DNA of 64,000 nucleotides from Euglena gracilis. Taxonomy: Eukaryota. This document shows, in pieces, positions 1 through 31,300 of the stretch (within the stretch, counting starts at the first letter, position 1; each line of letters begins with the position of its first letter). The notes beneath the pieces are model-generated. The model worked only from the letters and a program-made list of their open reading frames with translations, was not told where the DNA came from and did not search any database. The stretch is taken from assembly GCA_039621445.1 (NCBI GenBank), contig CP154954.1, positions 33,581,455 to 33,645,454 of the forward strand, in the 5' to 3' direction. A program made the position numbers and the translations under genes.

Positions 1-538
1 CTACCGTCTATGAGCTCACCGAATGTTGGGAAGTTTTGAGAGGAGTTCTGTTTGTGCTCATAGGGCTATGGCCACATCGACCACCACGTCACGACTCCCC
101 ATCGAGTGTGCATGCCATTATGCGGTTGCTGACTTGTTTATGGTCCGAAGTATGCAACATCGGCGAGGCCTTTCATTTCTACCTGCCCCCCAATCACCTA
201 ATGACACTACCCAACGTTCTCCGGCCGAGAGCACTTTCCCCAGAGTACCTCCAACGGAGCCCTCCTCGTCCGACCTCTCCCCATTGAATGTACACACCGT
301 TGATATCCTGGACATCATGGCCTTGTTACGTCCGACAAGATCAGCAGTTTTTTTGTTGACCGTCACGTCCGGAGGGCACGACGGACAGCACAAAGACAAC
401 CAAACTGCCAACGCGGTGACCAACAAGGTGACATAAGCCCTAACCACGCTGTCAAAACCGAGAGGCCCACACACCAAGATGTCACACTTTGTGGTGACGT
501 TCAGCTTGAGCCAGGACCTATTCACCGGATAACCCCAC

Positions 539-3100
539 GTGAAGGACCCCTATCCCTGCGACCTAGCACCCGGCCCCATTGCGGACGACCAACTTGCACT
601 ATGGCCTCAGGGCCTTCTAAGTTGTCAAATGTGGCCCCAGGGCACGCCAACCACGTACGGCAACCGATTAACCAGGAAAACGCGGTATGGGTACAGTCCC
701 CCCTGGTGTGGCAGGGGCAAAAGCCTTGCCAGTTGTGGCGACATTGAAAGCAACCCAGGTCCCACAGAAACCCGCCCTCCCCAGCAGGAGGACGTTGAAA
801 TGGCCTCAGCCGCACAGACCTCTGCTGTGGCTGACGGAGCTACCGCTCCTTGGATCTTGGTTTCCAATGCACTCGACGCCGCTGTTCTCGCCTACTTTGT
901 CCCAAGCTATAATGCCGTTTCCCAGTTTGAACGGGGGCCCCGGGGCACCCGCAGCTGAACAAATCATGGTCATTGACGAACTAGAGTCCCGGGTGCGCTC
1001 AGCGATTTCCGAAATTCACGGGTGTGCGCCGCAGGGCCAGGGGATGATTGAGAATTTTGTGCCGTCCTCACCACAAGGGCAAGAGCAACAGTGCCAAAAT
1101 GGTCGAAGGCCGCAGCACCCCGTGGCTGTAGCACCAGCGCAATCCTCGACGAACGCTGATACGCTGCAAGTCACTCCCTTCTCGCAACCTTGCCCACCAC
1201 TGCAGCCATCTTGGGAAGAAATTTCCCAAGACACGCGGGGCACGTTGGTCCATATCCCACGGGGAGCGTTGCGAAACGTTGGGCTCGCCTTTTGCAGCAC
1301 CCTCAGTCGCTTTGTATCAAAACCAGGATGGGAAACCCTACACACACTTTGGTGCTTCCCAAAAGCTGTGCTTGCTCCACTGAAGCGGAGCGGGAAAAGC
1401 CATTGGGCTGCAGTTGGACAGAAAATTACTGAGAGAGCCAATGCCTACCTCAACCGGTTCACAGAAGATTCGTGGGATGAGACTCGCCAAATTCGCGATG
1501 CACAAAACCCAAAGAAGAGAACACGAAGTCAGACAAAAAATTTCGATGCAGAAAGCCAAGAAAGATTGTGCAACCGTGTTCAAAGCCTTGTCAGCCATGG
1601 GGCGGTCAGTAAAGCCTGCCGCATGCCAACTTCTGATGGAATCCAAGATGCAGATGACCCGCTAATCTTGGAACGGTTGGCTGCCTTGCACCCTCCTGAA
1701 CCCCAACCTGGAAGGCAAAATCTGCCTCCGGACTTCCCTCGCCTCGAATTCGATCTCAGTGAAGATGCAACCAGGGAGCGCCTAATTGAAATACGGAAAG
1801 CAGTCATGTCTTTCCCGAAGGAGTCCTCACCAGGACCGTCTGGACTTCGTCCAGATCATCTTAAAGACGTACTCTCTGATCCCCTGGGGACACAATCAGA
1901 ACAACTCCTCACAATTTTGGACCAATTCGTCCGAACATGTTTGACAAACGGAATTCACAACTCTGCGGCATGGGTTTTCGCTGGTGCCCGTTTGACTCCT
2001 CTTCGAAAACCCTGCAATCCAAGCGAAAACCTTGATGAGCTTGGCAATACCAACCCCATTTCTGACCCAAAGAAGGATGGCACGCGACCAATTGCAGCTG
2101 GGGAATGCCTGCGCCGATTGGTGGACAAATATTTGATGAGGCACCCCAAAATCAGGGACCTCCTTAAAGAACTGCAGCCACTACAATGCGGTGTAGGGGT
2201 CCAGGGGGCATGTGAACTCATTGCTATGGGACTGCAGCAAGACGTGAATCACCTGCACATGCAACAGGACAACACCTGGGCTTTGTTACAGGTAGATTTC
2301 AGCAATGCTTTTAATTGCGTGAAAAGAAAGACAGTCGTTGCTGAAGTGGCTAAACGCTGCCCGGAGGCGTACGTTTGGTTCGAGAGTTGCTACGTCGAAC
2401 ACAGCCCGCTCTTTTGTGGGTCATCACACCTTCGGAGTGCCTCTGGCGTACAACAAGGGGACCCTTGTGGCCCAGCCGGATTCGCCTTGGCGTTGCAATC
2501 TCTCGTCGAGTCCTTGCAAGACGTGGTGCCACTCCAATTGTGGTATTTGGATGATGGACACATCCTGGGAACCCTCCCACAATTACATGCAGCAATTACA
2601 GAAATTCAACGACAGGGGACGCTACTAGGCATACACCTCAACGCAAAAAAATGCCGCCTGTGGGGCCCTGCAGCAACAGAAGCCAATCGTGCTGAAATGC
2701 CGCAAAACAGCCCACTTCGTGCAGTCCCAATCGTGAACTACTCCCCTAATTCTGGTATACGGGCCCTGGGAATCCCGGTATGCCATCCACAAAGCGGAGG
2801 CTTTGCGGGGGAAGTGTGGGCTGAACGTGCAACAGGTGTGCAGAAAGCTTGCCGGGCCCTTTTGAACCTGCCTCAAGCCCATATTCAGTTCTGCCTCTTA
2901 CGAACCTGCCTAGATGCTTGCAAAGTTAATGACCTCCTGCGTGCAACAGAACTGGGGCAGGCAAATGACGCATGTGCTCTGTTGACCAAAGAAATCAGGA
3001 ACACAATGAGCAACATTGTTGGATCCCCAATCGATGACAACCAATGGGCTCAGGCCACCCTACCCGTGCGTCATGGCGGACTCGGAAATCGGGACCCATC
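539..3100 (+). pseudogene. Leader-2A-RT polyprotein of element A; frameshift at ~900-960; endonuclease lost
   Basis: The 2A lies in ORF 539-958 and the RT in ORF 687-3455, a different frame. RT-like sequence ends at GGLGNRDP (~3100). Confidence 0.8.
710..763 (+). other. 2A-like StopGo peptide GRGKSLASCGDIESNPG|P
   Basis: Exact D(V/I)ExNPGP consensus with T2A-like upstream context. Confidence 0.85.
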
Positions 3101-3219
3101 ACCATTCGGGACCCATTCAGAGTCAGTGAAGCCACCTCTGCGTACCATGTTGGGGGTCGGGGAGGACCCCGCTCGCCCGGGGGGGCTGCCGGGGCCGCAA
3201 CCACTTTTTTCTGGCCCTG

Positions 3220-3552
3220 TGTTTACGTTGGTCGTCACCACCCGCCGTTGGACGGCCACCGGGCAGCTCATACTGCTTGCCGTGGCACGCCCTCAGGCGG
3301 GGAACTACACCCAAGGTCCGGCCAACCAGTGTCTCGTCCTTGGGCGCAGTTACACGCGCCGGTCGATCCCCGCGGTATGCCCTCTGCCCGTACGGGATCG
3401 ACCAGGACTCACACGGCGGGACCTGGGTCTCGAACCCACGACCTCCCGCGTGTGAGCCCAGCACCTTACCGAATAAGCTACTCGAGCGATACTCGGCTTG
3501 GTACTACGCGCCGGCTACCAACCTCTGTAGGATCTCCCGTCTGCCGCACACA
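3220..3552 (-). repeat. TRIM 3' LTR
   Basis: Apparently identical to 3910-4242 (offset 690); TG...CA termini. Confidence 0.95.
3415..3487 (-). ncRNA. tRNA-Val(CAC)-like sequence / internal Pol III promoter in the TRIM LTR
   Basis: Minus strand reads GCTCGAG-TAGCTTATTCGGTAAG (A box)-...-CTCACAC-GCGGGAGGTC-GTGGGTTCGAGACCCAG (B box/T arm). Acceptor and anticodon stems are degenerate. Confidence 0.75.
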
Positions 3553-3562
3553 CTCCCCTCCC
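3553..3562 (-). other. Polypurine tract of the TRIM (GGGAGGGGAG)
   Basis: Purine run directly abutting the 3' LTR on the minus strand. Confidence 0.8.
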
Positions 3563-3909: not shown

Positions 3910-4242
3910 TGTTTACGTTGGTCGTCACCACCCGCCGTTGGACGGCCACCGGGCAGCTCATACTGCTTGCCGTGGCACGCCCTCAGGCGGGGAACTACAC
4001 CCAAGGTCCGGCCAACCAGTGTCTCGTCCTTGGGCGCAGTTACACGCGCCGGTCGATCCCCGCGGTATGCCCTCTGCCCGTACGGGATCGACCAGGACTC
4101 ACACGGCGGGACCTGGGTCTCGAACCCACGACCTCCCGCGTGTGAGCCCAGCACCTTACCGAATAAGCTACTCGAGCGATACTCGGCTTGGTACTACGCG
4201 CCGGCTACCAACCTCTGTAGGATCTCCCGTCTGCCGCACACA
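3910..4242 (-). repeat. TRIM 5' LTR
   Basis: Copy of 3220-3552, followed on the minus strand by the PBS. Confidence 0.95.
4105..4177 (-). ncRNA. tRNA-Val(CAC)-like sequence, second LTR copy
   Basis: Same sequence as 3415-3487. Confidence 0.75.
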
Positions 4243-7200
4243 CCCTGGAGGGCTCAGGCCAGGGCCTTTCTGAAATTGGGCCCCGTTTTCGAACATGCCA
4301 ACCGGCGGTAAAGGGGGTGAGGTGTGCCCCCCCGACCCGGGGTCCCCGGTTGCCCCGCGTAGGATCTTTTTTTCCCTCCACTGTTGGTTTTTTCCCATTT
4401 CTCAACTTGAACTTTCAGGATGAATCCACAAAGACAAAAACCAACCCACCTACTTAGGTGAGCAAATCTGCAGCACAAGACAAACCTGACTTGGAGGGTT
4501 GGGAGTACCTGGGTTCAGGAAACCTGCTGCTTGGGGTAGAAGATCAGTTGGAAAGCAATGCCTTGGTTTCTTGGAATAATTGAATTGTCCTTTTTGATCT
4601 TTCAATTCTCAATTGACTTTTCTGCACTTGTGATTCTCAAATCGAATTCTCAAATTCTTGCTGGAATTTGCTGGGGTTCCAATTCCACTCGCGTGGCTGT
4701 TGACTTGCTCTGGTGGTTCCTACTGGGGGTTTTTGGGAATTTTCTGGGAAATTTTTGGCTGCCGACGCCAGCGGCAGCCGACACCCCCTCCCTTGCGACG
4801 TTAGTCGGACCCGTTTTTCTCCCCCCCCCCCCGAGCAAAAACGGGGAGAAGGAGTTTTTTTTTTGTGGGGGGCGAAAATTCCGTTTGGGTTTTTTTTAAA
4901 AAAACGGGTCCTGTCGCTTTTTTTTTGAAAATCAGCGTTACGCGTGTGACCCCCCCCCCCAGCCATAATATCGGGCACCTTGGGGGATTCTGAAAAATCA
5001 GGTCTACGGGGGAAGCCCCCCAAACCCTTTCCTCCGACAAGCATGGGGAACGGGTCTTTGAACACAAAATCTGAAAATTCTGAGTGAAACCAACTCTGGG
5101 CACTCCACCCCAAGGCCTAAGTCCCACGCTACCCCCTTGGTGAAAATCCTTTTGGCAGCTTTCATTGTGTGAAACTTCATTTGTCGATTTTTTTTAAAAA
5201 AAAATCAGGGACTTTGGCCAACAGTGCCTCAAAAAATGACTTGTGTGGGGAAGGAAAAGAGAAACCTAGGCATTCCTTTCCAATTCGGGACAGAAGGGTG
5301 AGGAAAAGGTTGAAGGTGAATGGGTGCAATGGTGAGAGGGTAAGACGGTTATATACGGCGGGAATAGTGTACAGATGTGTGCGGGTTTGTGTGCGTGTCC
5401 GGTTGTGTGTTTTGTGTGTATGCACGCTCACTTCCTTGTCATGCATTCCAACCGAAAATGACTGGGCCGATCGATTTTTTTTTGAATGCAAAGAGAACAG
5501 GGCTTCACATTGGCCCTCAGCCACTATATCACAGGGCTTTAGTGCCCACGTGGCTGTTTTTTTTCCTTTTCATTGGCCCACAACAGGGCCTATGGACGGA
5601 GGAGGGGTCATCTCCGGTCCAGGGTCCCCCCCCCCCCGAGTTCGGATGCCTCCAAGCTGTGTTCCATGAAAAAAATGCCTTTGACGAATATCCAATAGTC
5701 CAAACCGAATCAAAAAACTGAGTTTGAAAATCCCAACTCGTTTTCCATCCTCCAGAAAAATCATCGAAATCCCAGGTTTTTTCCAACTCTTTGTGTAAAA
5801 ATCCTCCAGAAACAAAAATCCTCAAAAAATCAAAAATCAGGGTCCAACCCACAAGTCCAGGGCCTACAAGAGCCCTCAACATCGAGAATTCCAAACTGCC
5901 ACCACATCCAGCAAACAAAGTCCAACCCACAGAAGCAACATCGAACAGCATACCGTTGCATAGGGGCCAGGCCATTCCAGCCCAACCCTGGGCACAACCA
6001 ATTCACAGCCGAAACCAACCAATTCGGCTTGCCAATTAAAATTCACTGCCCCCCCCCCCCAGTCATACGGGGCAATGGGGGTCAAATGACATGGCAAACT
6101 CAAAAACACTGAAAATTTATATCCAATTTTCTCAGCCAAAGCGATTTTTCACTGCCCCCCCCCCCCATTCACATGGGGCCATGGGGGTCAATCTGGCTTC
6201 AGCCTCCAAACAAAAAAATCACAAACCTGGGCCGTAATATCCAAACCGGCTGAAATCTCACACATGTCAAAGGACGGGCCTTCACAATGCCGCCCCCCCC
6301 CCCACCGTCAACCAGTGCGGGGAGGGCCATGGGTTAAAAATTCCTGGCTGCAAAATCAGAATCCCCATTCGACAAATAAAATGGGGAAAATGGAAATATC
6401 ATCAAACCCCGTCACATCTGGGGTATGACCAAAACAATCACGGTCACAATATGATGCATTCCTGTCCCCACCCAAACGTCTCACAGGGGTATCCAATTCT
6501 GAGTCAAAAATTCCAACCGTAAAGCCAAAACTGATTTTGATCCACCACACCAACACAGCTCATGTGGCTCAACACCCCCCCCCCCCCAGCAACACAGGAA
6601 GAGGGAGAGCGAACCCAGTCCAACCACTCGGAAACAAGAAAACTGCAACTCAGCCCCTGGCACCATGGGAGCTGCCCACCAGTTTGAATCTCGGCTTGCC
6701 CCTTGTTTGGGCAATTGTGTCAAAGGCTCGGTGGAGGTCAGCCATTAGACTTCTCCCCCAGCCAGGTGACTGAAGTCCAAAAAACTCAAACTCCTTGGCC
6801 AGAACATGAAATTCACCAATCAATCCATATCCCAGCTTTGAGCTTCTCTCCCCAGCACAGAATTGTAATCATGACAATCAGAATCATGTGATTCAATTGT
6901 TTGGGTCCCATTGATTTCATTAAGTCTGTTCTCCAACTCGACTTGAAATGTTCATAATCCCAGTCTTTGAAGTCCTTTCTTTGCAAACTGTTGCAATTTT
7001 TGAATTCAATAAATTCAATCAAATTCCTTGATGACTTGTCTGCTTTGTTGTTCAATGTCAATGTAATCATCATTGTCCTGGTCAACAAACTTGAACTTGT
7101 TGAATAAGTCATCAAACTCGAAATTCTCAAAATCTCTTGTGTTGATTCTTTTTTGGTGCTTGATTTCTTGCTTGCTTGCAAAACCTGCAAGACAAAGGAA

Positions 7201-8389: not shown

Positions 8390-9796
8390 CTACCACCACT
8401 GGTACGGTGGAAACCACCCCCAGCTGTTCCAGGGATTTAAATGCCAGTCCCAACCCCACCAATCCTGAAACCAACTTGGTCTCAAAAATTGAAAGTCATT
8501 CCAACTGTTTTTGGCAGGTCTCCAGATTTTCTTCGTTTGTCTGAATTTTCTTCGCTGAGTGGCAAAATCTGAGGAAGATTTTTCAGAAGACACTGATGAC
8601 GGCTGCAGATTTGTGACATGTCCAGAATTCAGGTTCACGGACACAAAATTTTCTGGACTTGGTGATTTTATTTCACTGGGCTGTAACTTTTCAGCGATTC
8701 GTAGTTCAAACATTTTCAGCCGTTCCTCCAGAATCTTTTCTTCACTCTCCAGCCGTTTTGACAGAGCCTCGCCCTTCTCACACAGGGACTGGATGCTTTC
8801 AGAAAAACGGTGTTCAATTTCACTGCAAGTTCGTGTCAAAAGGTCATGAAAACCATCTGCCAAATTTCTCAGACGGGTTTCAATTTCAGCCATCCGTCCC
8901 TCCAAGTGGCTGGACTCACTTTGGCTGGGCACTTCCTCCAGTTTCGTCAGCCTCTCGTTCAGAGAAAAAGTGTTTGAAAACAATTCTGTGATACCTGCCT
9001 CAACTTTTTGCCACAACTCATCCCAAGGGTCATAAAAAGTTTCAGGTTTTGTGACCTCTGAAGTTTCCACACTGTCTGATTTGACACTCAGCTGTCCGGA
9101 TTCAGATTCACACCGCACAACTCTCATTTGCAAAACATTTGGACAAGGGTCAAAACTTTCTTGTTTAACTTCAGGTTCTCCTGGCAGTGAGCTTGTTGGG
9201 CTTACCCCTGACGGTTTACAAGATTGACATGGAGAAGATGAGTCAGGGCCATGAGAATGTCCAATGGCCGCTTCACATCTGAGTTTCCAAAACTCCCTCT
9301 GAGACGCCAGAAGTTCAGCCTCCCTTTTTCTTTGTTCCTCTGTTTGGGTATCACTGAATTCAATTCCCTACAATTTGAATTGGTCACTGTATTCCTTGAA
9401 TTCTTTGTCATCAACAGAATCTAAAAATTCTTCACTGACAGAGTCAGTGAATCCACCTCTGCGTACCATGTTGGGGGTCTTGGGGGAGCCTGCTCGCCCG
9501 GGGGGGCTGCTGCTTTCGCTGGGGCCACAATTTCTCTTTTCTGGCCCTGGTGGGCTCAGGCCAGGGCCTTTGGCAAGTTGGGCCCCGTTTTCAAATAAAT
9601 CTACAGGCGATAATGGGGGTGAGGTGTGCCCCCCCGACCCAGGTCCCCCTGTCTCCCCGCGTAGGATCGTTTTTAGCCTCCACTGTTTTGCCTTTTCAAA
9701 CATTTGGATCAAAAGGTGAGCAAGGACAAAACCAACCCACCTACTTAGGATCAAACAGCAGAGCACAACAAACCTGGGGCTTGAGAGGGTGGGCAA
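8390..9796 (-). pseudogene. Coiled-coil ORF of the tandem unit, split by an in-frame stop
   Basis: ORFs 9368-9796 and 8390-9133 match parts of the 466-aa ORF at 13541-14941. Confidence 0.6.
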
Positions 9797-14941: not shown

Positions 14942-15280
14942 GTACCTTTGAATTCAGGTGTTGAGTGGGAGAAAGAATGTGGAAATGAATGCCTTGATTT
15001 CCTTGGATAATTGAATTGTCCTTTTTGATCTTTCAATTTTCAATTGACTTTTGTGCTTTTGTGATTCTCAATTCGAATTCTCAAATTCTTGCTGGAATTT
15101 GCTGGTGTTCCAATTCCACTCGCGTGGCGGTTGACTTGCTTTGGATATTCCTACTGGGGTTTTTGGGAATTTTCTGGGAAATTTTTGGCTGCCGACGCCA
15201 GCGGCAGCCGACAACTCTCACCCGCACAGGACTTCGGCCTAACCCAGCACACCAGAGTAATCCAAAAAAAAAAATAAGGC

Positions 15281-16260
15281 GGCAAGGCGCAAGGGCGCAA
15301 ACCAGAAGGGCCCGGCGAGGAGGTCCGAGGGAAACGGAGTATTGCGTCCCTGAGGAGCTCCTTCCACCGCACCTGTTTACCATCCGGGGATGCAACTCCT
15401 GCAGTTTGACCCAGACAGCCGGATCGGAAGAGCGGTGGGTTCCTTCGAACAAGAGAACTTGCAGGGCCTTCGCAGGGGCCCCTTCCCCCACCAACGTGCG
15501 GGCACGGCGGAGAACAGCGGCCGGTATGGCGGCGGGCTCGGTGCGTGCTCTTTTGGCTGCCCGCGTCTCGATGGACGCTGGTGGGAGACGGGTGGCGTTT
15601 CTCAGCTCTGTCATCAGCGTTCCATTGTCCCCTTGCCGGAACAGTTGGACGCGCCGCCTGATCGCGGTGGAGATGTCCTCATCGGCCTCACGCCCCGCAC
15701 TTTGGACTGTCCGAAGCAGTTTGGGGAAGGCGAGGGTGGCGAACAGGCTGTCCATGGTTGGCCTGCTGACGTATTCCTCTATGACATTGGAGAGGGTCTC
15801 GGACACGTCACGTTGGTTGGCCGCAGGCACATGAAGGATCGTGTTTGCGCGGCAGAGGAAGACCTCCTGGAGGTTGGCCGGCTGGGGCGGGATGGTGATT
15901 CCGGGCGGGCCACCGTGACGGAGGTCAGAGTTCTTTCCGCTTTGGTCGACCACCACAGCCGCGGGTGTGTCGTCAGCTGGGTGTGCTAAATCGTTTTGTG
16001 CTGTCACGAGGCGCCTCCGCGGACACGACAACCGACGTGGCTGACCTCTTTCTGCCTCCCGGCGGACCTGGGTTGCTTTCAATGTCCCCGCAGTACAAGA
16101 GGCTCCCTCGGCCCGTCTTGGCGGGCGCTCGGCAATAGGGGAGTTGTCCATTAGGTTGATCATAATGTGGTCCACGGTGCACCGGGGAGTCACGGCAGGT
16201 AAGCGCGATTCCCCTTCGGCGATTGGTTGGGAAAGCCCTCCTACACACCGGCGCCGCCAA
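15281..16260 (-). mobile_element. Inverted 5' part of CRE element B (2A, N-terminal region, up to SSPGPSGLRP)
   Basis: Minus-strand frames give GRGSLLYCGDIESNPGP, LAFPKLLR, RARTLVGEGAPAKALQVL and FPRTSSPGPSGLRP. Confidence 0.85.
16063..16113 (-). other. 2A-like peptide GRGSLLYCGDIESNPG|P
   Basis: 14/17 identical to Thosea asigna T2A GRGSLLTCGDVEENPGP. Confidence 0.9.
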
Positions 16261-16267
16261 GGACTAA

Positions 16268-18190
16268 GTGGGCCGGCTGAGTCCCCTGCAGGTAGGGGTT
16301 GGGGTCCCCAATGCGTCCGAATCCGTCGCCATGGCAACCCAAAGTCTGGTCCGGAAACTGGATCCGCAGGGGAACTGGGCCATTCTTCAGGTGGACCTGA
16401 AGAACGCCTTCAACACACCGGACAGAAATGTCCTTCTACAAGAAGCGCAAACGCGCACTCCAGCGCTTTTCAACTACCTGCGCTTCGCCTACGGCCAGCC
16501 GGCACCGTTGTTCAGCGGAGGACGCGTGCTCCACTCCACGAGAGGCACACACCAGGGTTGCCCCCTGGGACCCCCTGGCTTTGCAGTGGGCCTCCACACC
16601 ATCAGCGAGACCATCAGCCAGCAAGCAGAGTTGCTCTGGTCCTCATGGTACCTGGATGATGGGGTGCTTGTCGGTGAGCCCTGGGCTTTGCAGAAGTGCC
16701 TCGAGTTCCTGCGGACCGAAGGCGCACGCAACGGGGTCCAATTGAACCCGGCGAAATGCGTCGTATGGGGTCCGGCTGCTGGCGCACTCCCTGACCGCGA
16801 GAAGGTTCAAGTTGTACCCTGGGTCGAGGGCTCTGGGATCACTGTCCTGGGCTGCCCCGTCGACTTCCCAACCACGGCAGGGCACACAGTGGCAGCATGG
16901 ACGGAGGCAACAACCAAGCTGGAACAGGCTGCGGACCTAGTCACCTCGGTCACTGACCCCCAGCTGGCGCACCACATCCTGAGGTCTTGACTGGACGGCT
17001 GCAGAGTTAACCACCTCCTGCGCGCCTCTGATCCCTACCAGGCGCAGGGTGAAGTGATTCGGTGCAGTGAGACGATCTTCGGTGCCTTTAAGGACATCAT
17101 CGGCCAAGCCCTCAGCACAGACCACCGCCTGCAGGCCTCGCTACCGCTGTCACAAGGTGGGTGTGGCCTTCGTATTCCCGCCTCCCACCAAGCAGCAGCC
17201 CGTACCGCCGCCCTGTGCCAGTTCTACACACATGGACATAAGCGGGTCGCATGTCCAAGCTACGCGGCCGCCCCGGACGACCGGCTCTGCCAGCAAGCCG
17301 CCAGTGACCTTGGCTCCGTCCTCGGCACCCGTCACCCTGAGAGCAACCGGCTGACAGCATCAGCAGCCTTCGCCTCTGCATCGGCAAATGACACCTCGCA
17401 GAAATGGTGGCAGACCCAACTATCCAAGGCCCATGTGGACGCCCTCATCGCCACGTGGTCTGCAAGGGACCAGACACGTCTTATGGAACAGCTCAACGGT
17501 ATCGGCCACGGCTGGATGGCAGCAGCCCCCAATGAGGCTCTGCACACGGTGATTGAGCCCACCGACTACTGCCTTGGCCTAAAGTGGTGGCTTGGGCTGC
17601 CCCTGGCTGACACGCCAACCACGTGCGCGGGGTGCCATTCTGTGGCAGACATCCACGGGGATCACGACATGTGCTGCATTCGGAACAACTTTGCAAGCCG
17701 ACACAACGCCGTTCAGGAAGCCTTATTCAACCTCCTTTCCGCGAACGGCCAGAGTGTCCAACGCGAGGTGCCAGTACCAAACCAGCCAGACGCCTCCCTG
17801 CGACCAGCGGACCTGTTGCTGGCAACATGGCAAGACGGGAAACCGACCGCGGTAGACATCGCGGTTGCACACGGCTGGCAGTCTGCTGAGAGGACAGCGT
17901 CCAGGGAACGATGGAGAACCTTCCTCAAACGGAAGGAGACCGCAAAGCACGCCAAGTACTACATATTGTGCCGAAACGGGGGCTGGTCCTTTGCCACGCT
18001 GGCATTTGGGACATGGGGAGGCCTGGGCCCGGAGAGCGCCAAGCTGCTGACAAGACTGATCGAACGATCGACCTCCTGGGATCAAGGCGACGTGCGTTTG
18101 ACGCGGCAGGCTGAGAGCTACCAGAGCTTGGCATTGGCCCTGTTCAAGCAGATCACTCAGTTGCTACGACCGAAGCATGTGCTTCGCTGA
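16268..18190 (+). pseudogene. RT plus restriction-like endonuclease of CRE element B; in-frame TGA at 16988
   Basis: QVDLKNAFN, GTHQGCPLGP, WYLDDG, CAGC..HDMCC, RHNAVQ, RPADLL, AVDIAV, KHAKY. ORFs 16268 and 17054 share one frame. Confidence 0.9.
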
Positions 18191-18717: not shown

Positions 18718-18761
18718 CCAGTAGGCTGTGCCACTGGTCGGTGGATTCGGTTCGCCCCACC
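18718..18761 (+). other. Conserved 3'-terminal double hairpin (element B)
   Basis: CCAGT-A-GGC-TGT-GCC-ACTGG-TC-GGTGG-ATTC-GG-TTCG-CC-CCACC; recurs at nine places in the window. Confidence 0.8.
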
Positions 18762-21700
18762 ACAGTATTTTTGTCTCATGTGGAAAAAAAACGACGACTT
18801 GCAGCCTTCTTCTCACTGGAGAAGGACACGGTGGTGGGGCGAGCCGAGTCCACCGACTAGTGGCACAGCCTACTGGATTTGAGTGCTCAGGGGGAGGGCT
18901 ATATACAGAAGCGGAAGCAGCAGTCTGTCAGAGGTAGAGGTACAGGAGAAGGCGTGTAAAGCCGAGCGGTCTTGGTAGCAGCGGAGACGGAGGGACGAGG
19001 GGAAACTTGGCGGATGAGGTGCGTTGGGGGTGAGAGGCGGAGGGCGTGGTGGCTGGTGTGTGTGTGTGTGTGTGTGTTTTGTGTGTGCTTGCGGTTTTTT
19101 TTTTGGAGGGATGGGATGTGAGATTGGTAGGTCATCTTTGCTCAATCCATTGCATATGGGCTATGGGTGGTGGGATCCACCTCTCCAGATGGCTCCGCCA
19201 CCGCACCCCATGCCAGCTGGCGGGCCACTTCTCTTGCCAATGTGAGACTCAGGGTTTGCCAGACGGAGGCTTTAGATGAGCGTCGTTGAAAAAACATCTG
19301 TTTGAGCCAATACAGTGCGGAGGCATTTGGTGATGAAGGTTGCAGCCTGCTCCCCCACGCCCCCAAAGCAGTCCAGCACGAATGGGATGAACGAACGAAC
19401 GAACAAATGAATGAATGAACGTCCACCCAAGGCGTTCACAGGTGGCTGCGTATTTGCGGCATTTTTTGGCTTCCTGTAATTCGTGCCACCGTGCTACGGC
19501 TTCTTTTGTGGAGACCGGATTGGCTGGCTGGAGCGGGTGACGCACCGTGACATCCACTGCTGCGGGTCCGTCAGCATCGTCCCTGGTAATGAAGACATCG
19601 CCGAGCCTTGTCTGGTTGTCTGCCACCTCTTCTCTTCGGGCCATGAATCCCGCTTTCCTTGCAAGCTCCACGACAAACGTTTGAAGGGCACCATGTCGCC
19701 GCAAAGTGTTGTTTTTTGGGCAGCAGACAAGGCGATTTCCGCCAAAGTCCATTTGCTGGTGGCAACGAGGGCATTCTGGCAAGGAACCATCTGGCATTGT
19801 CGGGCAAATTGCACACCCTAGAGACCATTGCGTCAGCGCTCTGAATTCGGCTGGTGGAATGAGTGTTTTCAGTGGAGCAGAGGGATTAACCGCAGCCCAG
19901 GCCATGGCGTGTGGCTTCCGCTGGCAGGTAAAACGGACTGCGTCGTTTCCTGCAAAGCTGCCCAAAAGTAGGTCAGCCCGTACTTTTACGACCTCATATG
20001 TCCAAAACTTCTGTCTCGTCATTGTGGGGGACAAGGAGCTCACTTTGCTTGGGTCCGCAAGGATGTCAGTGAGAGGTGCCAACCCTTTGTTGAGACTCGA
20101 AATTAGCAAGCCCGTCTCGCCATGGTCACGTGGAAGCTGAGGGCAGCCTTCCGGTTGGCCCAGAGTGCTGTGGGAGAGGAAACCCAGGATAGCTGCCCAT
20201 CTGGCCGGTGTTCTGGCTGCTTCTGGGTCTCGGATCCCCAGTCCTCCCAAGCGGACAGGAAGTGAGGCCTGTGCCCATTGTTTGTCGTCCATTGGGCGGG
20301 CGGTGATGACCGACATTGTGTCCCGTAGGATGCTGGAGGAGGAATGGCACTGTATTTTAGCACCCGAGAGGCGCGTGGTTCGCAGCAAATCATTCACTTT
20401 GCAGGCATCAAGGCATTGCCTGAGCACAGTGAATTGTAGATGCGGTGACGGCACCAATTGTAACAGGTGGCACGCCTTCTGGACACCGGTGAGGCGCTCC
20501 TCCCAAAGGAGGGAGGCAAATTCAGGCGTTCCACCCGGGTGGCAAACAGGCGCGCCGAGTGCGCGAATGCCGGTGCCGGCTGTGAAAGGCTCGACCGGGA
20601 TGCCCTGAAGGATGCCTTCTCCGTGCTCCACAAAGGCTGGACCACACAGTCTGCATTTCGCCAAGTTGAGACCTACACCAATCCGTGGTCCCTCAGATAC
20701 AATCAACCAAACTGCCCTCTCAAGCTGCTCCGGTGTGCCCATGACGTGGGCATCATCCAGGTACCAGGCTTGCCAGCCCACGATGCCTTGCAGTTTGTCC
20801 AGCAATGGCTGTATCCCGAGGGCAAATGCGGCCGGCCCGCACGGGTCCCCTTGCTGCACACCAGACTTGCTTCGGAGGGATGTCTTTCCCAGATACAACC
20901 GAGAATGGCGTGCGTAGCAGCTCTCCAACCACGGCAGCAGGGAGGGGACATCTATCGGCGACCTCGGCCAGTAAGTTCTCTCTTGATATGCAATTGAATG
21001 CATTTGAGAAATCCAGCTGGAGTAACCCCCAGTCAACCTTCCCGATATGGGACAGGCCGTCAACTATCTGCTGAATGCCCATGCTTATCAATGCGCATGC
21101 GTCCGGTACACCTACCCCCAGCTGTTGTGGCAAGGCGGTAGCCAGGGAGCGGCGGACTTCTGTGTGGCGCATTAGCACTTTTGCCACCAGGCGTCGGAGG
21201 GTTTCCCCGGCAGCAATGGGCCGTGTGCCTTCCTCTTCAGGGGATGTTTTGTTTACGGGGTCGGTGGGTGCGCCGGTCCCTGTTTTTGTTTTGCGGAGTG
21301 GCGTGAGGCGATCCGCACATAGCACTTGCGCTGGTCCATCAGGGATTCCCTTCATTACACAACCGAAGACAAATTCTGTCAACTCGTCCAGGAGGTCTTC
21401 TGCAAAGCTGCCAGCTTCATCACTGAGGAGGGACTTCAGATGTTCAGGACGCAGTCCTGAAGGGCCTGCGGATGATTCAGGGCCGAAGCGCCGTACTGCC
21501 TGTTTCACCATGCGGCGGTCATCTGCCAAGTCCTCGCAGCGAGAGGGTGGTTTTAACCTTGTGGGAGGGCCCCTTCCTGGTTCTTTCTCTGTTGGGTGCA
21601 TTCGGCGTAATCTCTCCCGCACAACGGGATGAGCCGCATCCTGGACTCCTTCGGAGAGAAGTAACTGGCATGCCTTGCCCACGGCTCCTCTCGCCACCGG

Positions 21701-22332
21701 CGTCTCCATCCGACGGATAAACCAATCTGTTAGTTTGCGGAGGATCGGGTGGATACCGAGGAGGCTGGATTTACGGCCGGCTTTTTCGAATTCTGCCAGG
21801 AGACGGCGGCCGGCTGTGTAAGGTAGGCTCGTGCCCTCGTACTGATGGTCCTTCCCAACTGAGCCCAGTGATTCCTGCCAGCGCGTGGCAAGGGTGCCAG
21901 CACTGCCTTGGGCATGCACCAGAGTGCGTGTGAGGACTCCCATGAAGGGTGTCTGTTGTAGTCCTTCAGAAGAGAGGAGTAGAGTTGGGAGACCGCCTGT
22001 ACGGCGCCACGAGGGATGTGTGAGACCGTGCCCCTGAGGTCCTGTGCGATGCCATCCCAGGTTGGTTCGAGCGTCGGACAGCGTTGTGAGAAGGGGGTCC
22101 CAGGCGTTCTGCAGCCCGGCAGAAATGGCTGGGGTGGGCCATCTGTTTCCATGGCTGCCGTCGCTGCTGTAACCTGGACAGTCGTGGGCGCGGCAAGGGC
22201 AGGCAATGGGTCATCCAATTCAATGGCCACCAATAATTCCGGGTCCAGGTTGGTCCCACTTTCAGTCGGCCGTGAAAGAGCAGCATCCTGCCTTCGTGTT
22301 TGGCGGCCTCTCTCCGTTGGCTACCCTGTGCG

Positions 22333-22386
22333 TGGGCCAGGGTTTTCTTCAACGTCGCCACACGACAGTAGCCCGCCTCTTCCCCG
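22333..22386 (-). other. 2A-like peptide RGRGGLLSCGDVEENPG|P
   Basis: 15/18 identical to T2A EGRGSLLTCGDVEENPGP. In frame with the downstream element ORF (21730-22233) across a single TAG. Confidence 0.92.
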
Positions 22387-22429
22387 TAGGTGGAAACCCC
22401 ACGCTATTACGGCTGGAATTGTGCTGAGC

Positions 22430-22989
22430 CCTGGGGCAAAATTTGACGGCATTACGGCCTTGGGCCCTGGAGCCACATCTGTGAAACACTTTTCCGTGCC
22501 CGTTTTGGCTTGAGACGTGTTGAGCCCTGGGGCCAAATTTGACAGCATCATGGCTGAAGCCTTGGGCCCTGGGGCCACATCTGTGAAAAACTTTTCTGTG
22601 CCAGTTTTGGCTTGAAATGTGTTGGCTGAAGCCTTGGGCCCTGGGGCAACATCTCTGAAAAACTTTTCTGTGCCAGATTTAGTTGGAAAAGTGTTGAGCC
22701 CTGTGGCAAAATTTGACAGCATCATGGCAAAAGCCTTGGGCCCTGGGGCCACATCTGTGAAAAACTTTTCTGTGCCAGTTTTGGCTTGAAATGTGTTGAG
22801 CCTTGGGGCAAAATTGGACAGCATCATGGCTGAGGCCTTGGTCCCTGGGGCAAGATCTCTGAAAAATTTTTCTGTGCCAGATTTGGTTTGAAATGTGTTG
22901 AGCCCTGGGGCAGAATCTGGGAGCATCATGGCAAAAGTCTGGGGCCCTGGGACCACCTCTCTGAAATGTTTAGAAGGCCCTGGGGCCAT
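22430..22989 (-). repeat. Coding minisatellite, 102-nt/34-aa unit (DVAPGPKASAMMLSNFAPGLNTFQAKTGTEKFFT), ~5.5 copies
   Basis: ccctgg anchors at 22465, 22567, 22639, 22741, 22843 and 22945 (spacing 102/72/102/102/102). Confidence 0.9.
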
Positions 22990-23293
22990 AGTGCAAATTG
23001 GAACAGTGATCGCTATGTTACAGCACAGATGGTAGAGCAAAGTACAGTGAAACAGGGATAGTACTTCCAGCCAACCCAGGGACCACTGGACCAGGGCCTG
23101 TAATTCCCTGGGGGGCATGAGGGTTCTTGCGCTGGCTGAAGGCATCACCGATGCCCAAGCCATTGCATGGGGCTTCATTTGACATGTCAGTTTGAGCTTT
23201 TCTGCTCCAGAGAGATAATTGTGTACCCTTTGATGAAACCTTTACTCAGAACGTCGTCGTAAAAAGTCGTCGAAAAGTCGTAGGAATTCGTCG

Positions 23294-23318
23294 CTTTCTG
23301 ACTGTCTATGTTTTTTCG
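23294..23318 (+). other. Euglenid spliced-leader-like exon relic CTTTCTGACTGTCTATGTTTTTTCG
   Basis: 23/25 match to the Euglena-type SL CTTTCTGAGTGTCTATTTTTTTTCG as recalled from memory. Confidence 0.65.
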
Positions 23319-24429: not shown

Positions 24430-24463
24430 ACCGCTTTGGCCAAAAATAGGCGGTTCCGAGTGT

Positions 24464-27400: not shown

Positions 27401-28314
27401 AGTGGCGGAAATGCAGAGCCAGTGAGTCGACGCGGTCGGCTTTGCCAGGGACCGGCTGAGAAGGGCTTGCCAAAAGGGACCGGTGGAAACGGGATGGCTA
27501 CGGACTTTGCCCAGAAAGGCACAGCACACAGCTTTCTCGGACATCCAATACTGGCTGCTACTGCAGTGGTGGCTTGGCCTGTCCATCCTCCCTTCAGGGG
27601 TCACGCTGCAGGGGTGCCCACTGTGTCGAGGGTCCATTGACCCCTTCGGGGATCATTCGTCTGCTGCGAGCAGAATGGAAACACCGAACGGCACAATGCA
27701 TTCCGAGATGCTTTTGCAGCGATGTGTGCCCTGTACAACATTGCGGTGGAGAAGGAGGCAGAGTGTTTGGCGAACAACAGACCGGCCGATGTTCTCCTCA
27801 TCAACTGGTCACAGGGGCAACGAGGCCTTCGGACCTCTGCCAGGCGGTGCTGTTTGAGGTCACCAAAAGGGCCACCGCAGACATGCGGGGATGGCCAAAG
27901 ACAAGGGCCATGAAAGAAAAGCAGGAAGCACTATCGGTGACACTCATGCGCCACGTTGCGCGGCAGGTATCCGCCAAGGACCGCGTGGAGCAGGCCCTCC
28001 ACCCATGGTAAGTCCCCAACCCCCACCGCAGACAGCACCAAAAGCGCGCAAGACCAAGGCCAAGACGGCCACAACCCGCAAATCGCGGAGGTTCACCACG
28101 GAACCACCCCCCCAAAAGGCGCCCCCCCCCACAAAAAAAAACGAAGCCGCCAAAAAAAACAGAGCCCACACGCCAGGCGAAAGGTATCCGCCCAACGAGG
28201 CAACAAATGGGAGTGGAGCCGGCAAAAGCAACGCACACGCAAAGGGTAGCCCGCCCGCCCCGGACTCCACAAGGTGAGAAGAGAGTGCGCGCGCGACCCA
28301 GCAAGCCGGCTATA
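24487..28314 (+). mobile_element. Heavily decayed CRE element E (N-terminal C2H2 finger, RT, RLE); cut by the assembly gap
   Basis: CPFSSC...HLAAHH, CFPKLVLR, KKDGGVRPIAVGDTLRR, QVDMCNAFN, GVHQGDACGP, LPIRQGGLGI, CPLC, RPADVLL; many frameshifts. Confidence 0.88.
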
Positions 28315-28327
28315 NNNNNNNNNNNNN
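28315..28327. other. Assembly gap (13 N)
   Basis: N run. Confidence 1.
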
Positions 28328-31300
28328 CGGACCCCCCCCCCAGCCATAATATCGGGCACCTTGGGGGACTCTGAAAAATCAGGTCTACGGGGTCCCCCCC
28401 ACCCCTTTCCTCCGACAAGCATGGGGAAACGGGTCTTTGAACACAGATCTGAAAAACGATTACAAACGAAACAAACACTGGGCACTCCACCCCAAGGCCT
28501 AAGTCCTACGCTGCCCCCCTTGGTGAAAATCCTTTTTGGCAGCTTTCATTGTGTGAGACTTCATTTGTCGATTTTTTTAAAAAAAATCAGGGACTTTGGC
28601 CAACAGCGCCTCAGAAAATGACTTGTGTGGGGAAAAGAAAAAGAGAAACCTAGGCATTCCTTTCCAATTCGGGACAGTTGGGTAAGAAAAAGGCAAATGG
28701 TAAGCAAAAGTGAAAAGTGAGAGGGTAAGCGGTCATATGGAATAGTGTACAATGGGTGTGCGGGTTCGTGTGCGTGTGCGGTTGTGTGTTTTGTGTGTAT
28801 GCACGCTCACTTCCTTGTCATGCATTCCAACCGAAAATGACTGGGCTGACTTTTTTGAACGCAAAGAGAACAGGGCTTCACATTGGCCCACAGCCACTAT
28901 ATCACAGGGCTTTAGTGCCCACGTGGCTGGTTTTTTTTTTTCATTGGCCCACAACAGGGCCTATGGACGGAGGAGGGGTCATCTCCGGTCCAGGGTCCCC
29001 CCCCCCGAGTTCGGATGCCTCCAAGCTGTGTTCCATGAAAAAATGCCTTTGACCAATATCCATTATCCAAACCGAATCAAAAAACTGAGTTCTAAAGCTC
29101 CAACTCGTTTTGTCGTCCACCAGAAAAATTATTAAAATCCCAGGCTTTTTCCAACTCTTTGTGTAAAAATCCTCCAGCAACAAAAATCATCAAAAAAATC
29201 AAAAATCTGGGTCCAACGCAGGGCCTACAAAAGCCCTCAACAAAATCCAATCCAGAATTCCAACCTCTGACATCCAGCTGAGAACAACCAACCCAAACAA
29301 AAGCATCCAGCAGCATACCGTTGTTGAGGGGCCAGGCCATCCGGCCCAGCTGTGGGTCCAACCGATTCACTGGAGCCGTAAAACCAACAAATCCGGCTTG
29401 CCAATTTAAATTCACTGCCCCCCCCCCCCAATCACACGGGGCAATGGGGGTCAAATGACATGGCAAACTCAAAAATACTGAAAATTCAAATCCAATTTTC
29501 TCAGCCAAAGCGATTTTTCGCTGCCCCCCCCCCACCAGTCACATGGGGCCATGGGGGTCAATCTGGCTTCAGCCTCCAAACAAAAAATCACAAACCTGGG
29601 CCGTAATATCCAAACCGACTGAAATCTCACACATGTCAAAGGACGGGCCTTCACAATGTCGCCCCCCCCCCCACCGTCAACCAATGTGGGGAGGGCCATG
29701 GGTTAAAAATTCCTGGCTGCAAAATCAGAATCCCCATTCGACAAATAAAATGGGGAAAATGGAAATTTCATCAAACCCCGTCACATCTGGGGTGTGACCA
29801 AAACAATCACGGTCACAATATGATGCATTCCTGTCCCCACCCAAACGTCTCACAGGGGTATCCAATTCTGAGTCAAAAAATTCCAACCGTAAAGCCAAAA
29901 CTGATTTTGATCCACCACACCAACAAAAAAAAGGGCTCAACACAGCCCCCCCCCCAGCTGCACGAGGGAGGAGAAAAAATGGCTCCAAACCACATGCAAA
30001 ATCCTGAGACCTAAAAACATGAAAAATCTGATTCAGCGCTGTGGGAGCAGCCAACCTGGGCCTGGACCTGGGCTTTGGCCGTGCATCGGGCCACTGCCCA
30101 CTGCAGGCTCTTGAGGTCGTTAAGCTTCTCTCCCCAGCACTTCAGTAAAATAAATGTACCCACCATTCTGGGATTCCATAAACGATCCACAATTGTAATC
30201 ATGCCAATCGTAATCATGTGATTCAATTGCTTGGGTCCCATTGATGTCATTGAAATCGGTTCTCATCTCATCGAAATGTTCATCCCAGTCTTTGAAGTCA
30301 ATTCTTTGCAAACTGTTGAAGTCTTTGAATTCAATAAATTCAGTCAAAATCCTTGATAACTTGACTGCTTTGCTCCTTCATTTCGTGATTGCTGCTTGAA
30401 CCTGCATGACAAGGCACACACACACGCACAAAATTCACCACTGGCAACACAGAAGGCAGATTTCTGAATTTTCTCACTGAACCGAACCTGAAAATGCCAC
30501 TGAACTCTGAACCAAAACGGCACTTAAAATCTGTATCTTGATCCATCAAATGGGTCACACGAAAACTGTATAAGCAAGTCTCAAACTGCAAAAATTACCA
30601 TTGGGAGTTTTGCATTGTGAGGCGTCCCCCACTTCTGAGTTTTTTTCCCTCAAGCAAACTCCACAGCCGAAAAAATGCCGCAGAAAGTGTTACCCACAGA
30701 TCAACAGATTTTTCACTGAAAAACTGAACTGAATGCCACTGATGATGCCACTGCTGGGCCCAAAAATGAATTTTCCTCAGGGGTGTCTTTTCCTCCTGGG
30801 GTTAATCCACCTTGGTTCCCAAGACTGAAAAACTGAAAACTGTTTCCTGAGCCCTTAGATGGGTGGCCACAGGGGTGTTTATTCCTGGCCTGGGTCTAGC
30901 CCCACCCTCGGAACCCCTCTTTGCGCGCTTTCCAAAAACCTTTTTGGTTCGAGTGGTCCATTAGAGGTCTCCCCTGCCTCAGGATTTGGCAAAAACCCAG
31001 ATAAAACCTGCCACAGGACTGCTGGGCTGCCACACTCGAAAACCACAATAAAACTGGACTGAAAAATACCAAAAAACTGTGCCGATTCTCCAACATATGT
31101 CCCTGTCCGGGGGTAAGTTTCTCTCTGGAAAAACTGTCCCGTGACAAAAGGGACCAGCAAAAACACAAACCAAAATTCCAACCTGAAATGTCTGATTTGT
31201 CCCCGTCGGGGATGGTGACACATGTCAATGCCGTGCCCCACCCCAAATGACATTTGGGACAAGAACCGAAAACTGAAAACTCTGAAACTGAAACTGAAAG

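What the first reader, a model, noticed from the sequence alone, without database searches (positions are those of the whole stretch)
710..763. 2A ribosome-skipping peptide at the N-terminus of CRE element A
Seen: GRGKSLASCGDIESNPGP after a short leader and ahead of a WYLDD-type RT, separated by one frameshift. Known: DxExNPG|P causes StopGo cleavage and is described in RNA viruses and in APE-type LINEs such as trypanosome L1Tc/ingi. I know of no description in RLE-type CRE elements. Inference: the 2A releases a fixed Pro-start RT-endonuclease from a disposable leader.
Basis: partly seen in the sequence, partly recalled or inferred. Interest (0 to 1): 0.75.

Follow-up and report, generated by a model that had tools for sequence, protein, structure and literature searches.

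The report
2A skipping peptide in endonuclease-type LINEs
A virus-like 2A "ribosome-skipping" peptide sits at the start of the reverse-transcriptase gene of a high-copy jumping element of the ancient restriction-endonuclease type, a class in which such peptides do not seem to have been described.

Summary
Window 710-763 reads GRGKSLASCGDIESNPGP. The strict motif D[VI]ExNPGP occurs 5 times in the window against 0 expected. These are three independent insertions, A1, A2 and B; A2 and B are each doubled by a 23-kb segmental duplication.

The window copy A1 is dead. Its leader ATG (601), the 2A and the RT lie in three frames, and it is cut off near 3102. Contigs of other copies, laid from four public runs, carry two more bases behind 676 and two more behind 829. 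By frame arithmetic this puts leader, 2A and RT in one frame.

Element B carries leader, 2A, N-terminal domain, RT and endonuclease in one element. The 2A shares the frame of the conserved domain, with one TAG between them. Public proteins show the same layout unbroken, for example P0162.

Profiles match R2 proteins through the endonuclease. No APE domain was found. So the elements are RLE-type. Membership of the CRE clade was not tested.

The peptides resemble T2A. Relatives often carry several 2As that separate Dam-like and SLBP-like parts, so "disposable leader" is only part of the story.

Verdict: a new variant of a known kind.

The parts
490..519 (+). Degenerate upstream 2A-like relic CGDVQLEPGP (context TERPTHQDVTLCGDVQLEPGPIHRITP, 457-537), in the same frame as ATG 601
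   Evidence: Relaxed motif scan and tblastx. It aligns to the 2As of many relatives. E to Q and N to E changes at key positions suggest it is inactive (inference).
601..681 (+). Leader start of element A1: ATG 601, MASGPSKLSNVAPGHANHVRQPINQEN (frame 1)
   Evidence: The stretch 589-643 is 83% identical to B's start region 23001-22944, where MAPGPSK... is in frame with B's 2A.
677..680 (+). A4 run where other copies read two more A; this breaks the leader frame from the 2A frame in the window copy
   Evidence: table 4, 'AA put in behind 676': X2 6304.5 of 9917.5 depth (3 contigs), X7 19.4 of 19.4 (1 contig), X1 only 84.8 of 7550.2 (1 contig). Loose ends at 680 read AACGCGGT (X1, 2 records).
710..763 (+). 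The finding: 2A peptide GRGKSLASCGDIESNPGP of A1 (frame 2); the skip would fall between G (758-760) and P (761-763)
829..832 (+). Place where other copies carry two more bases (CC) and C for T at 832; this breaks the 2A frame from the RT frame in the window copy
   Evidence: CC behind 829: X7 21.8 of 21.8, X16 4.86 of 4.86, X1 3220.7 of 16440.9, X2 4111.5 of 15427.3. T>C at 832 in all contigs that span it (X1 1 of 1, X2 4 of 4, X7 1 of 1, X16 1 of 1). Loose ends at 829 and 833 read ...GTGCCGCC... (X1 4+4 records, X2 3).
1170..3098 (+). A1 conserved N-terminal domain and RT (WYLDD at 2541-2555), frame 0. The homology ends at 3098, the copy is cut off near 3102, and no endonuclease part is present
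   Evidence: tblastn of P0003 residues 23-656, 47.5% identity. Pfam RVT_1. Loose ends at 3102 and 3118.
15283..16143 (-). Element A2: 2A TGRGSLLYCGDIESNPGP (core 16064-16086) plus the N-terminal domain. It equals residues 145-547 of P0162. The 2A and the domain are one base out of frame in this copy. Its duplicate lies at 38467-39382
16214..18190 (+). Part D: RT (SWYLDDG) and CCHC/RPAD endonuclease, equal to residues 608-1271 of P0162 (46.5% identity). It lies head-to-head with A2 and is probably the 3' part of the same element, whose 5' part is inverted
19148..23019 (-). Element B, full length: ATG 22989-22987, a leader with about 5 copies of a 102-base repeat (22421-22966), the 2A RGRGGLLSCGDVEENPGP (22386-22333), TAG 22323-22321, the N-terminal domain in the same frame as the 2A, then RT and CCHC/endonuclease. 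It has four frameshifts further on. The 2A core of its duplicate is at 45214-45236
   Evidence: P0003 residues 24-1005 matched.

Best explanation
The stretch is a genuine StopGo/2A site of the T2A type. It lies near the N-terminus of the single long ORF of a high-copy non-LTR retrotransposon of the restriction-like-endonuclease (RLE) kind. In intact copies translation would start at the conserved ATG (601 in this copy) and make a leader of about 54 residues ending in ...DIESNPG. The nascent 2A in the ribosome tunnel would block peptide-bond formation to the next prolyl-tRNA. The leader would be released and translation would go on from Pro, so the RT-endonuclease protein is made as a separate chain with a fixed Pro N-terminus. 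Some ribosomes would probably fall off at the site, so the 2A would also set the yield of RT. The window copy is a dead relic with two 2-base gaps and a truncation at about 3102. Shown here: the motif and its excess over chance; its position at the 5' end of three elements; that two 2-base differences seen in other copies put the three parts in one frame, and that relatives have them in one unbroken frame; the RLE type. Inferred: that skipping occurs, and what the leader is for.
For: There are 5 motif matches against 0.00 expected, which amount to three independent insertions. All three sit just upstream of the conserved N-terminal domain of an RT ORF. Family copies of A1 carry 2 more bases behind 676 and 2 more behind 829. 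By frame arithmetic this joins frame 1 to frame 2 to frame 0. Every contig that spans 832 carries the linked change. In B the 2A and the conserved domain 86 codons further on share a frame, with only a TAG between them. Relatives show the layout unbroken. 9 of 67 HMMER hits have a 2A upstream of the matched N-terminal domain in one protein. 12 of 31 word-search hits have a 2A followed by YxDD and CCHC in one protein, for example P0162 with 1273 aa. Evidence for the RLE type: profiles match R2 proteins from the RT to near the C-terminus (9nl3 E 5.5e-26), with the CCHC/RHN/DL/DVTV block aligned, and no APE domain was found in any of the 38 proteins scanned with Pfam. The peptide context fits active 2As. 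The consensus of 74 motifs in 32 proteins is GRG..LL[ST]CGD[VI]E.NPGP. T2A (EGRGSLLTCGDVEENPGP, activity 0.56) and Providence virus 2A1 (...GGRGSLLTCGDVESNPGP, activity 0.99) are listed as active in supplementary file 1 of PMC12338488.
Against: No cleavage assay exists for these peptides. The window copy is out of frame twice. As called, the two extra bases are a minority of depth in the deepest runs: AA is 84.8 of 7550.2 in X1; CC is 20% in X1 and 27% in X2. Much of the remaining depth is contigs that stop at those places, so the share of intact copies is not settled. A2 is out of frame and I have no other copies of it. A1's peptide has Ala where 49 of 74 relatives have Leu at position -10. 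The 2A is not general in the wider RT family. Only 1 of 120 hits of a query without a 2A carries it. None of 80 metagenome loci at 38% identity or less carries it in any frame. The searches that found many 2A-bearers used queries that contain a 2A, so those proportions are biased upward.
Confidence: 0.75

Rival explanations
1. The 2A is a separator between cistrons in a polyprotein, not a way to shed a throw-away leader. The part before it is, or was, one or more accessory proteins made in excess over RT, playing the role that ORF1 plays in APE-type LINEs. The short leaders of A1 and B would be reduced remains of that arrangement.
For: Relatives carry 2 to 5 2As in one ORF, with domains between them. 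Dam-like PF05869 was found in 12 of the 28 relatives scanned, above Pfam's cut-off in 7 of them (for example P0132 33.9 bits, P0190 35.8 bits). SLBP_RNA_bind scores 78.1 bits in P0167 between two 2As. A1 has a relic 2A 82 codons upstream in the leader frame. B's leader is about 220 aa.
Against: No domain was found in window 1-720 apart from the relic motif. B's homology to A1 starts only 12 bases before the ATG, and B abuts another element about 30 bases upstream. Relatives such as P0126 and P0135 have leaders of only 40-46 aa.
Confidence: 0.3
2. The motif acts mainly as a brake on translation, lowering the abundance of the RT protein through stalling or fall-off. Release of the leader would be incidental.
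For: The 2026 preprint 10.64898/2026.06.17.732966 (passages read) reports that most retrotransposon-linked 2A-like peptides it tested lowered protein abundance: 70% of ORF1p cases and 59% of ORF2p cases.
Against: The peptides here are close to T2A and Providence virus 2A1, which skip efficiently.
Confidence: 0.2
3. The 2A and the RT are meant to be in different frames and are joined by programmed +1 frameshifting. A1 and A2 both have the RT frame at +1 to the 2A frame.
For: The offset is the same in A1 and A2.
Against: Other A1 copies carry two more bases that bring the parts into one frame by arithmetic. B and at least 12 relatives are in one frame. Two copies sharing one of two possible offsets is weak evidence.
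Confidence: 0.03
4. The motif is a chance or dead remnant, for example a captured viral fragment, with no role in the element.
For: The window copies are all broken.
Against: There are 0 expected matches against 5 seen. The position is the same in three element families and in dozens of relatives, with a conserved 18-residue context.
Confidence: 0.03

Closest known systems
2A-like sequences at the N-terminus of ORF2 in APE-type non-LTR retrotransposons (L1Tc/Ingi of trypanosomes; Rex1, L2, L2A, Crack and CR1 elements of animals; Odon et al. 2013, PMC3708506, passages read)
   Same: [quoted passage not shown]
   Different: Those elements have an N-terminal APE endonuclease. These have none and carry a C-terminal CCHC/PD-D-K endonuclease like R2. 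[quoted passage not shown]
T2A of Thosea asigna virus and 2A1 of Providence virus (sequences and activities as listed in supplementary file 1 of PMC12338488)
   Same: The same upstream context, GRGSLL[TS]CGD[VI]E.NPGP. B differs from the last 16 residues of T2A at 2 places.
   Different: Those are in RNA-virus polyproteins. Here the host is a retrotransposon ORF. A1 has K-S-L-A-S in place of S-L-L-T.
R2 retrotransposon proteins (PDB 9nl3, 9dou, 9nl2, 8gh6)
   Same: RT followed by a C-terminal CCHC and restriction-like endonuclease; profile E 5.5e-26 over RT to endonuclease.
   Different: Only distant similarity. R2Bm (8gh6) matches in the RT alone. The 5' end of R2 is known, from my own knowledge, to be processed by a ribozyme in the rRNA co-transcript and not by a 2A. 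No rDNA target is seen here.
2A-like peptides in ORF2p-like proteins of algae, including Dualen/RandI elements of Haematococcus and an ORF2p of Symbiodinium necroappetens (bioRxiv 10.64898/2026.06.17.732966, passages); 2A in 580 RT-bearing contigs, about 79% non-LTR-like (bioRxiv 10.64898/2026.09.24.754024, section 31)
   Same: 2A peptides in non-LTR elements of protists and algae, sometimes with extra N-terminal domains.
   Different: The passages I read speak of APE-type or APE-bearing proteins, or do not give the endonuclease type. Dualen has APE plus RLE. The supplements of these preprints are closed, so members of the present family may already be in their lists.

Membership tests
StopGo / 2A peptide (class A) | C-terminal motif D(V/I)ExNPG|P | tested here: met
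   DIESNPGP at 740-763. A2 has DIESNPGP and B has DVEENPGP.
StopGo / 2A peptide (class A) | A suitable upstream context of about 10-20 residues like that of active 2As | tested here: met
   GRG..LL[ST]CGD is shared by 57 of 74 motifs and by T2A and Providence virus 2A1, which are listed as active. A1 has Ala at -10 instead of Leu.
StopGo / 2A peptide (class A) | Lies inside an ORF, with translated sequence before and after it | tested here: met
   Not in the window copy, but in other copies by frame arithmetic on their two extra base pairs, and directly in relatives.
StopGo / 2A peptide (class A) | Co-translational separation shown in a eukaryotic translation system | not testable with these tools
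   This needs a reporter assay.
RLE-type (R2-like, 'ancient') non-LTR retrotransposons | Non-LTR RT followed by a C-terminal CCHC motif and a PD-(D/E)xK restriction-like endonuclease | tested here: met
   Met for B and D in the window and for relatives. CCHC and RP[AG]D patterns are present. A profile with B as first row aligns this block to R2 9nl3 residues 988-1099 (domain i-E 0.01). Profile A2 matches 9nl3 over 414-1155 (E 5.5e-26). B's ORF alone found nothing in the PDB. A1 itself is cut off before this part.
RLE-type (R2-like, 'ancient') non-LTR retrotransposons | No APE (Exo_endo_phos) endonuclease domain | tested here: met
   No such Pfam hit in the window ORFs or in 28 relatives.
RLE-type (R2-like, 'ancient') non-LTR retrotransposons | N-terminal zinc-finger DNA-binding motifs | tested here: inconclusive
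   By eye, C2H2 and C4 patterns precede the N-terminal domain in P0004, P0009, P0135 and window element C. None is seen in A1 or B.
CRE clade (CRE1/2, SLACS, CZAR) | The RT groups with CRE references in a phylogeny | not testable with these tools
   No reference sequences of the clades could be obtained.
CRE clade (CRE1/2, SLACS, CZAR) | Site-specific insertion in spliced-leader RNA genes | tested here: inconclusive
   B abuts another element's endonuclease region, and A2/D and A1 lie among other repeats. No Rfam family was found in the window. A dinoflagellate SL motif recalled from memory has no match. The host and its SL gene are unknown.
Dualen/RandI | Both an APE and an RLE endonuclease in one ORF | tested here: not met
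   No APE domain was found.

The most novel reading that the evidence does not exclude
A widespread lineage of RLE-type ('ancient') LINEs expresses itself like a picornavirus. One ORF is cut co-translationally by one to five T2A-like StopGo sites into small peptides, an SLBP-like RNA-binding protein, a Dam-like protein and the RT-endonuclease. The 2A would then stand in for a separate ORF1 and for 5' processing. The 2A module also moves between element families: A1 and A2 share an identical 23-base core in otherwise unrelated flanks.
Probability: 0.45. Interest if true: 0.7.

Novelty: new variant of a known kind. Interest (0 to 1): 0.55.

Why it matters
2A sites in retrotransposons have been tied to APE-type elements, and their gain has been linked to the loss of ORF1 (PMC3708506, PMC3894237). 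Finding the same device in elements with an R2-like endonuclease, often several times per ORF and with accessory domains between the sites, has three consequences. First, StopGo would be a general solution for LINE protein expression and not a quirk of a few clades. Second, it adds natural T2A-like peptides from cellular genomes to test. Third, it bears on the old question of where viral 2As of the T2A type came from, or went to. It also offers a translational counterpart to the ribozyme that frees R2 from its co-transcript.

Tried and rejected
- No whole genome is held for the window, so copies were studied through public runs instead.
- Rfam and tRNA scans of the window found nothing.
- A dinoflagellate spliced-leader motif, recalled from memory, has no match at up to 3 mismatches. 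The host stays unknown.
- Earlier notes of this scan gave nothing.
The few names seen among the hits (sponges, Symbiodinium natans, two plants) belong to distant hits that carry no 2A motif.
- The ESM Atlas look-up gave only unnamed eukaryotic RT clusters.
- phmmer of B's own ORF against the PDB found nothing; only profiles reached R2.
- The metagenome scan returned only relatives of 38% identity or less, none with a 2A in any frame (0 of 80). It therefore did not help with the frame question. It does show that the 2A is not general in the wider family.
- No similarity of window 1-720 to any retrieved protein was found beyond the relic 2A. Whether A1 has an upstream cistron stays open.
- Run X16 is only guessed to be RNA, so I make no claim of transcription from it.
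- Programmed frameshifting and a chance motif were considered and rejected (see the rival explanations).
The frame test rests on arithmetic from the listed differences.
Full report
**The observation**

Window 710-763 on the + strand translates to GRGKSLASCGDIESNPGP. It lies in the stop-to-stop frame 533..958. The long frame 672..3455 holds an RT, with Pfam RVT_1 at E 1.8e-13 and LQLWYLDDG with W at 2541-2543. That frame differs from the 2A frame.

A back-translated D[VI]ExNPGP pattern has 5 matches in the 64-kb window. In 100 dinucleotide-preserving shuffles the mean was 0.00 and none reached 1. The matches are at 740 (+), 16064 (-), 39303 (-), 22334 (-) and 45214 (-).

A self-comparison shows that 9443-28314 is duplicated at 32630-51185 with 98.5-99% identity. 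The five matches are therefore three independent insertions, which I call A1, A2 and B.

**What surrounds the motifs**

The window is a nest of broken retroelements of a eukaryote. No whole genome is held for it. Rfam and tRNA scans found nothing.

I mapped the elements with a full-length relative, P0003, and with P0162.

- **A1 (+).** It has the conserved N-terminal domain and the RT at 1170-3098. The homology ends at 3098 and the copy is cut off near 3102, where laid contigs run on unlike the window (loose ends at 3102 and 3118).
- **B (-).** It is full length, from about 23019 to 19148.
  - The ATG is at 22989-22987, followed by a leader with about five copies of a 102-base repeat.
  - The 2A is RGRGGLLSCGDVEENPGP, followed by a TAG three codons later.
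  - The N-terminal domain is in the same frame as the 2A.
  - The RT and a CCHC/endonuclease part follow, with four frameshifts further on.
- **A2 (-, 16143-15283) and D (+, 16214-18190).** A2 matches residues 145-547 of P0162. The neighbouring part D matches residues 608-1271.
  - The two are probably one element whose 5' part is inverted, as twin priming produces in L1. That comparison is my inference from general knowledge.

A1 and B share the start region: 589-643 against 23001-22944 at 83% identity, with MASGPSK and MAPGPSK.

A1 and A2 share only the 2A. Its 23-base core is identical, while the flanks are essentially unrelated.

In the window copy of A1 the conserved ATG (601) is in frame 1, the 2A in frame 2 and the RT in frame 0. 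I laid Logan contigs of four public runs on 400-3200 at 85% likeness. The family is very abundant there, with summed word depths of tens of thousands in X1 and X2.

Two differences matter.

- **Behind 676, other copies read two more A.**
  - X2: 6304.5 of 9917.5 depth, 3 contigs.
  - X7: 19.4 of 19.4.
  - X1: only 84.8 of 7550.2. Two loose ends at 680 read the same.
- **Behind 829, other copies read two more bases (CC).**
  - X7: 21.8 of 21.8.
  - X16: 4.86 of 4.86.
  - X1: 3220.7 of 16440.9.
  - X2: 4111.5 of 15427.3.
  - Loose ends at 829 and 833 show the same letters (X1 4+4 records, X2 3).
  - Every contig that spans 832 away from its end carries the linked T>C change (X1 1 of 1, X2 4 of 4, X7 1 of 1, X16 1 of 1).

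Each gain of two bases moves the downstream frame by one step, from frame 1 to 2 and from frame 2 to 0. In copies that carry both, leader, 2A and RT would therefore form one ORF. The leader would be 54 codons up to the Gly.

There are two caveats.

- As called, the extra bases are a minority of depth in the two deepest runs. Much of the remaining depth is contigs that stop at those very places. The share of intact copies is therefore not settled.
- None of the 40 listed (best-supported) single-base differences falls between 458 and 831, but 168 more were not shown.

**Independent support from relatives**

*Query without a 2A.* The A1 RT ORF found 127 proteins, of which 120 were listed. Only P0009 carries 2As; it has three, in frame before zinc fingers and the RT.

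*Metagenome scan.* It returned 80 loci of 38% identity or less. None has a 2A-like motif in any of the six frames. The 2A is therefore not a general trait of the wider RT family.

*Exhaustive HMMER search.* The query was B's 2A plus N-terminal domain, with the TAG read as X. It gave 67 hits.
- 18 of the 67 hold [NH]PGP.
- In 9 of them (P0126, P0129, P0130, P0132, P0135, P0136, P0158, P0162, P0164) the 2A lies upstream of the matched N-terminal domain in the same protein.

*Word search.* Residues 130-640 of P0162 gave 31 hits.
- 17 carry one to four 2As.
- 12 of these also have YxDD and a CCHC pattern further on.

P0162 (1273 aa) reads as follows: a Dam-like part, a 2A, about 45 residues, a second 2A, the N-terminal domain, the RT with WYLDDG, CCHC, then RPAD...AVD.

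The last two searches used queries that contain a 2A. They show that the layout exists but overstate how common it is.

**Type of element**

A profile of A1 and its relatives matches R2 proteins from the RT to near the C-terminus: 9nl3_A at E 5.5e-26 over 414-1155 of 1169, and 9dou at 9e-26.

A second profile, with B's ORF as first row, aligns the C..C...H...C, RHN, DL and DVTV block to R2 residues 988-1099 (domain i-E 0.01). B's ORF alone found nothing in the PDB.

No APE domain appears in the window ORFs or in 28 relatives.

The elements are therefore of the RLE type and are not Dualen. Whether they belong to the CRE clade could not be tested. No clade references could be brought in, and the insertions lie in other repeats and not in a recognisable spliced-leader gene.

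**The peptide**

Across all proteins held, 74 motifs in 32 proteins give the consensus GRG..LL[ST]CGD[VI]E.NPGP. GRG is present in 57 of them.

This is the context of two viral peptides listed in supplementary file 1 of PMC12338488:
- T2A, EGRGSLLTCGDVEENPGP, activity 0.56.
- Providence virus 2A1, ...GGRGSLLTCGDVESNPGP, activity 0.99.

B differs from the last 16 residues of T2A at two places. A1 has Ala for Leu at position -10.

A1 also has a degenerate 2A (CGDVQLEPGP, 490-519) upstream, in the frame of ATG 601.

**How it most likely works**

This part is inference, based on the established StopGo mechanism. Translation starts at the conserved ATG. At ...NPG|P the peptide bond is skipped and the leader is released. 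The RT-endonuclease is then made as a separate chain that starts with Pro. Some ribosomes fall off at the site, which would set the yield of RT.

In many relatives the upstream part is not a mere leader. Dam-like domains (PF05869) were found in 12 of the 28 relatives scanned, above Pfam's cut-off in 7 of them. An SLBP-type RNA-binding domain lies between 2As in P0167 (78.1 bits). In those relatives the 2As act as separators of a polyprotein. The short leaders of A1 and B may be reduced forms of that arrangement.

**What is in print**

- Odon et al. 2013 (PMC3708506, passages) and Luke et al. 2013 (PMC3894237, passages) place 2A-bearers only in APE-type clades.
- A 2025 survey (PMC12338488; section 7 and supplements searched) lists metagenomic peptides of this type without context.
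- A 2026 preprint (10.64898/2026.06.17.732966, passages) reports ORF2p-like hosts that are mostly APE-bearing, including Dualen.
- Another 2026 preprint (10.64898/2026.09.24.754024, section 31) reports 2As in 580 RT contigs, about 79% of them non-LTR-like, without giving the endonuclease type in the text I read.
- The PNAS paper PMC12846837 mentions retrotransposons only in its references.
- Searches found no paper that joins 2A with restriction-like endonuclease elements.
- The preprints' supplements are closed and may hold members of this family.

**Verdict**

It is not supported for the CRE label. It is too narrow on the 'disposable leader'. I rate this a new variant of a known kind.

Noticed in passing
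9443-28314 and 32630-51185: A segmental duplication of about 19-23 kb at 98.5-99% identity carries elements A2/D, B and C along with it. Inside it, a unit of about 5 kb is repeated in tandem (10228-14535, 28328-32631, 33414-37719).
   Followed up: partly
15283-16143 (-) and 16214-18190 (+); duplicate at 38467-39382 and 39453-41414: The 5' part (P0162 residues 145-547) and the 3' part (residues 608-1271) of one P0162-like element lie head-to-head, with about 60 residues missing between them. This looks like a twin-priming-type 5' inversion in an RLE-type element.
   Followed up: partly
740-762 and 16064-16086: The 2A cores of A1 and A2 are identical over 23 bases, synonymous positions included, while the flanks align no better than unrelated sequence. 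This suggests exchange of the 2A module between families, or constraint on the RNA.
   Followed up: partly
Proteins P0162, P0132, P0153, P0186-P0207 and P0167 (public relatives, not in the window): These are single ORFs with two to five T2A-like sites that separate a Dam-like (PF05869) part and, in P0167 (weakly also in P0207), an SLBP-type RNA-binding domain from the RT-endonuclease.
   Followed up: partly
56894-63998 (+): A different retroelement. It has a long gag-like ORF with CCHC knuckles, a Dam-like stretch at 61859-62155 that matches the one in the 2A-bearing LINE relatives, and an RT with YIDD. It resembles DIRS-type elements (recalled).
   Followed up: no
3220-3553 and 3910-4243: A perfect 334-base direct repeat lies just after the truncation of A1. 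It contains a stretch that looks tRNA-derived on the minus strand, but ARAGORN calls no tRNA. It may be a SINE-like insertion.
   Followed up: no
13541-14953 (-), also near 31637-32395 and 36725-38038: A repeated ORF of about 440-470 aa with a coiled-coil-like middle and a Trp-rich end (…WWGWDWHLNPWNSW…). It has no Pfam family (only a chance-level EzrA hit).
   Followed up: no
24574-28011 (+); duplicate at 47451-50882: A third RT/RLE element family (C) with an N-terminal C2H2 pattern. No 2A motif is seen upstream of it.
   Followed up: partly
about 28300-28350: A run of unknown bases (X in the translation of the frame 27801..28505), probably an assembly gap.
   Followed up: no
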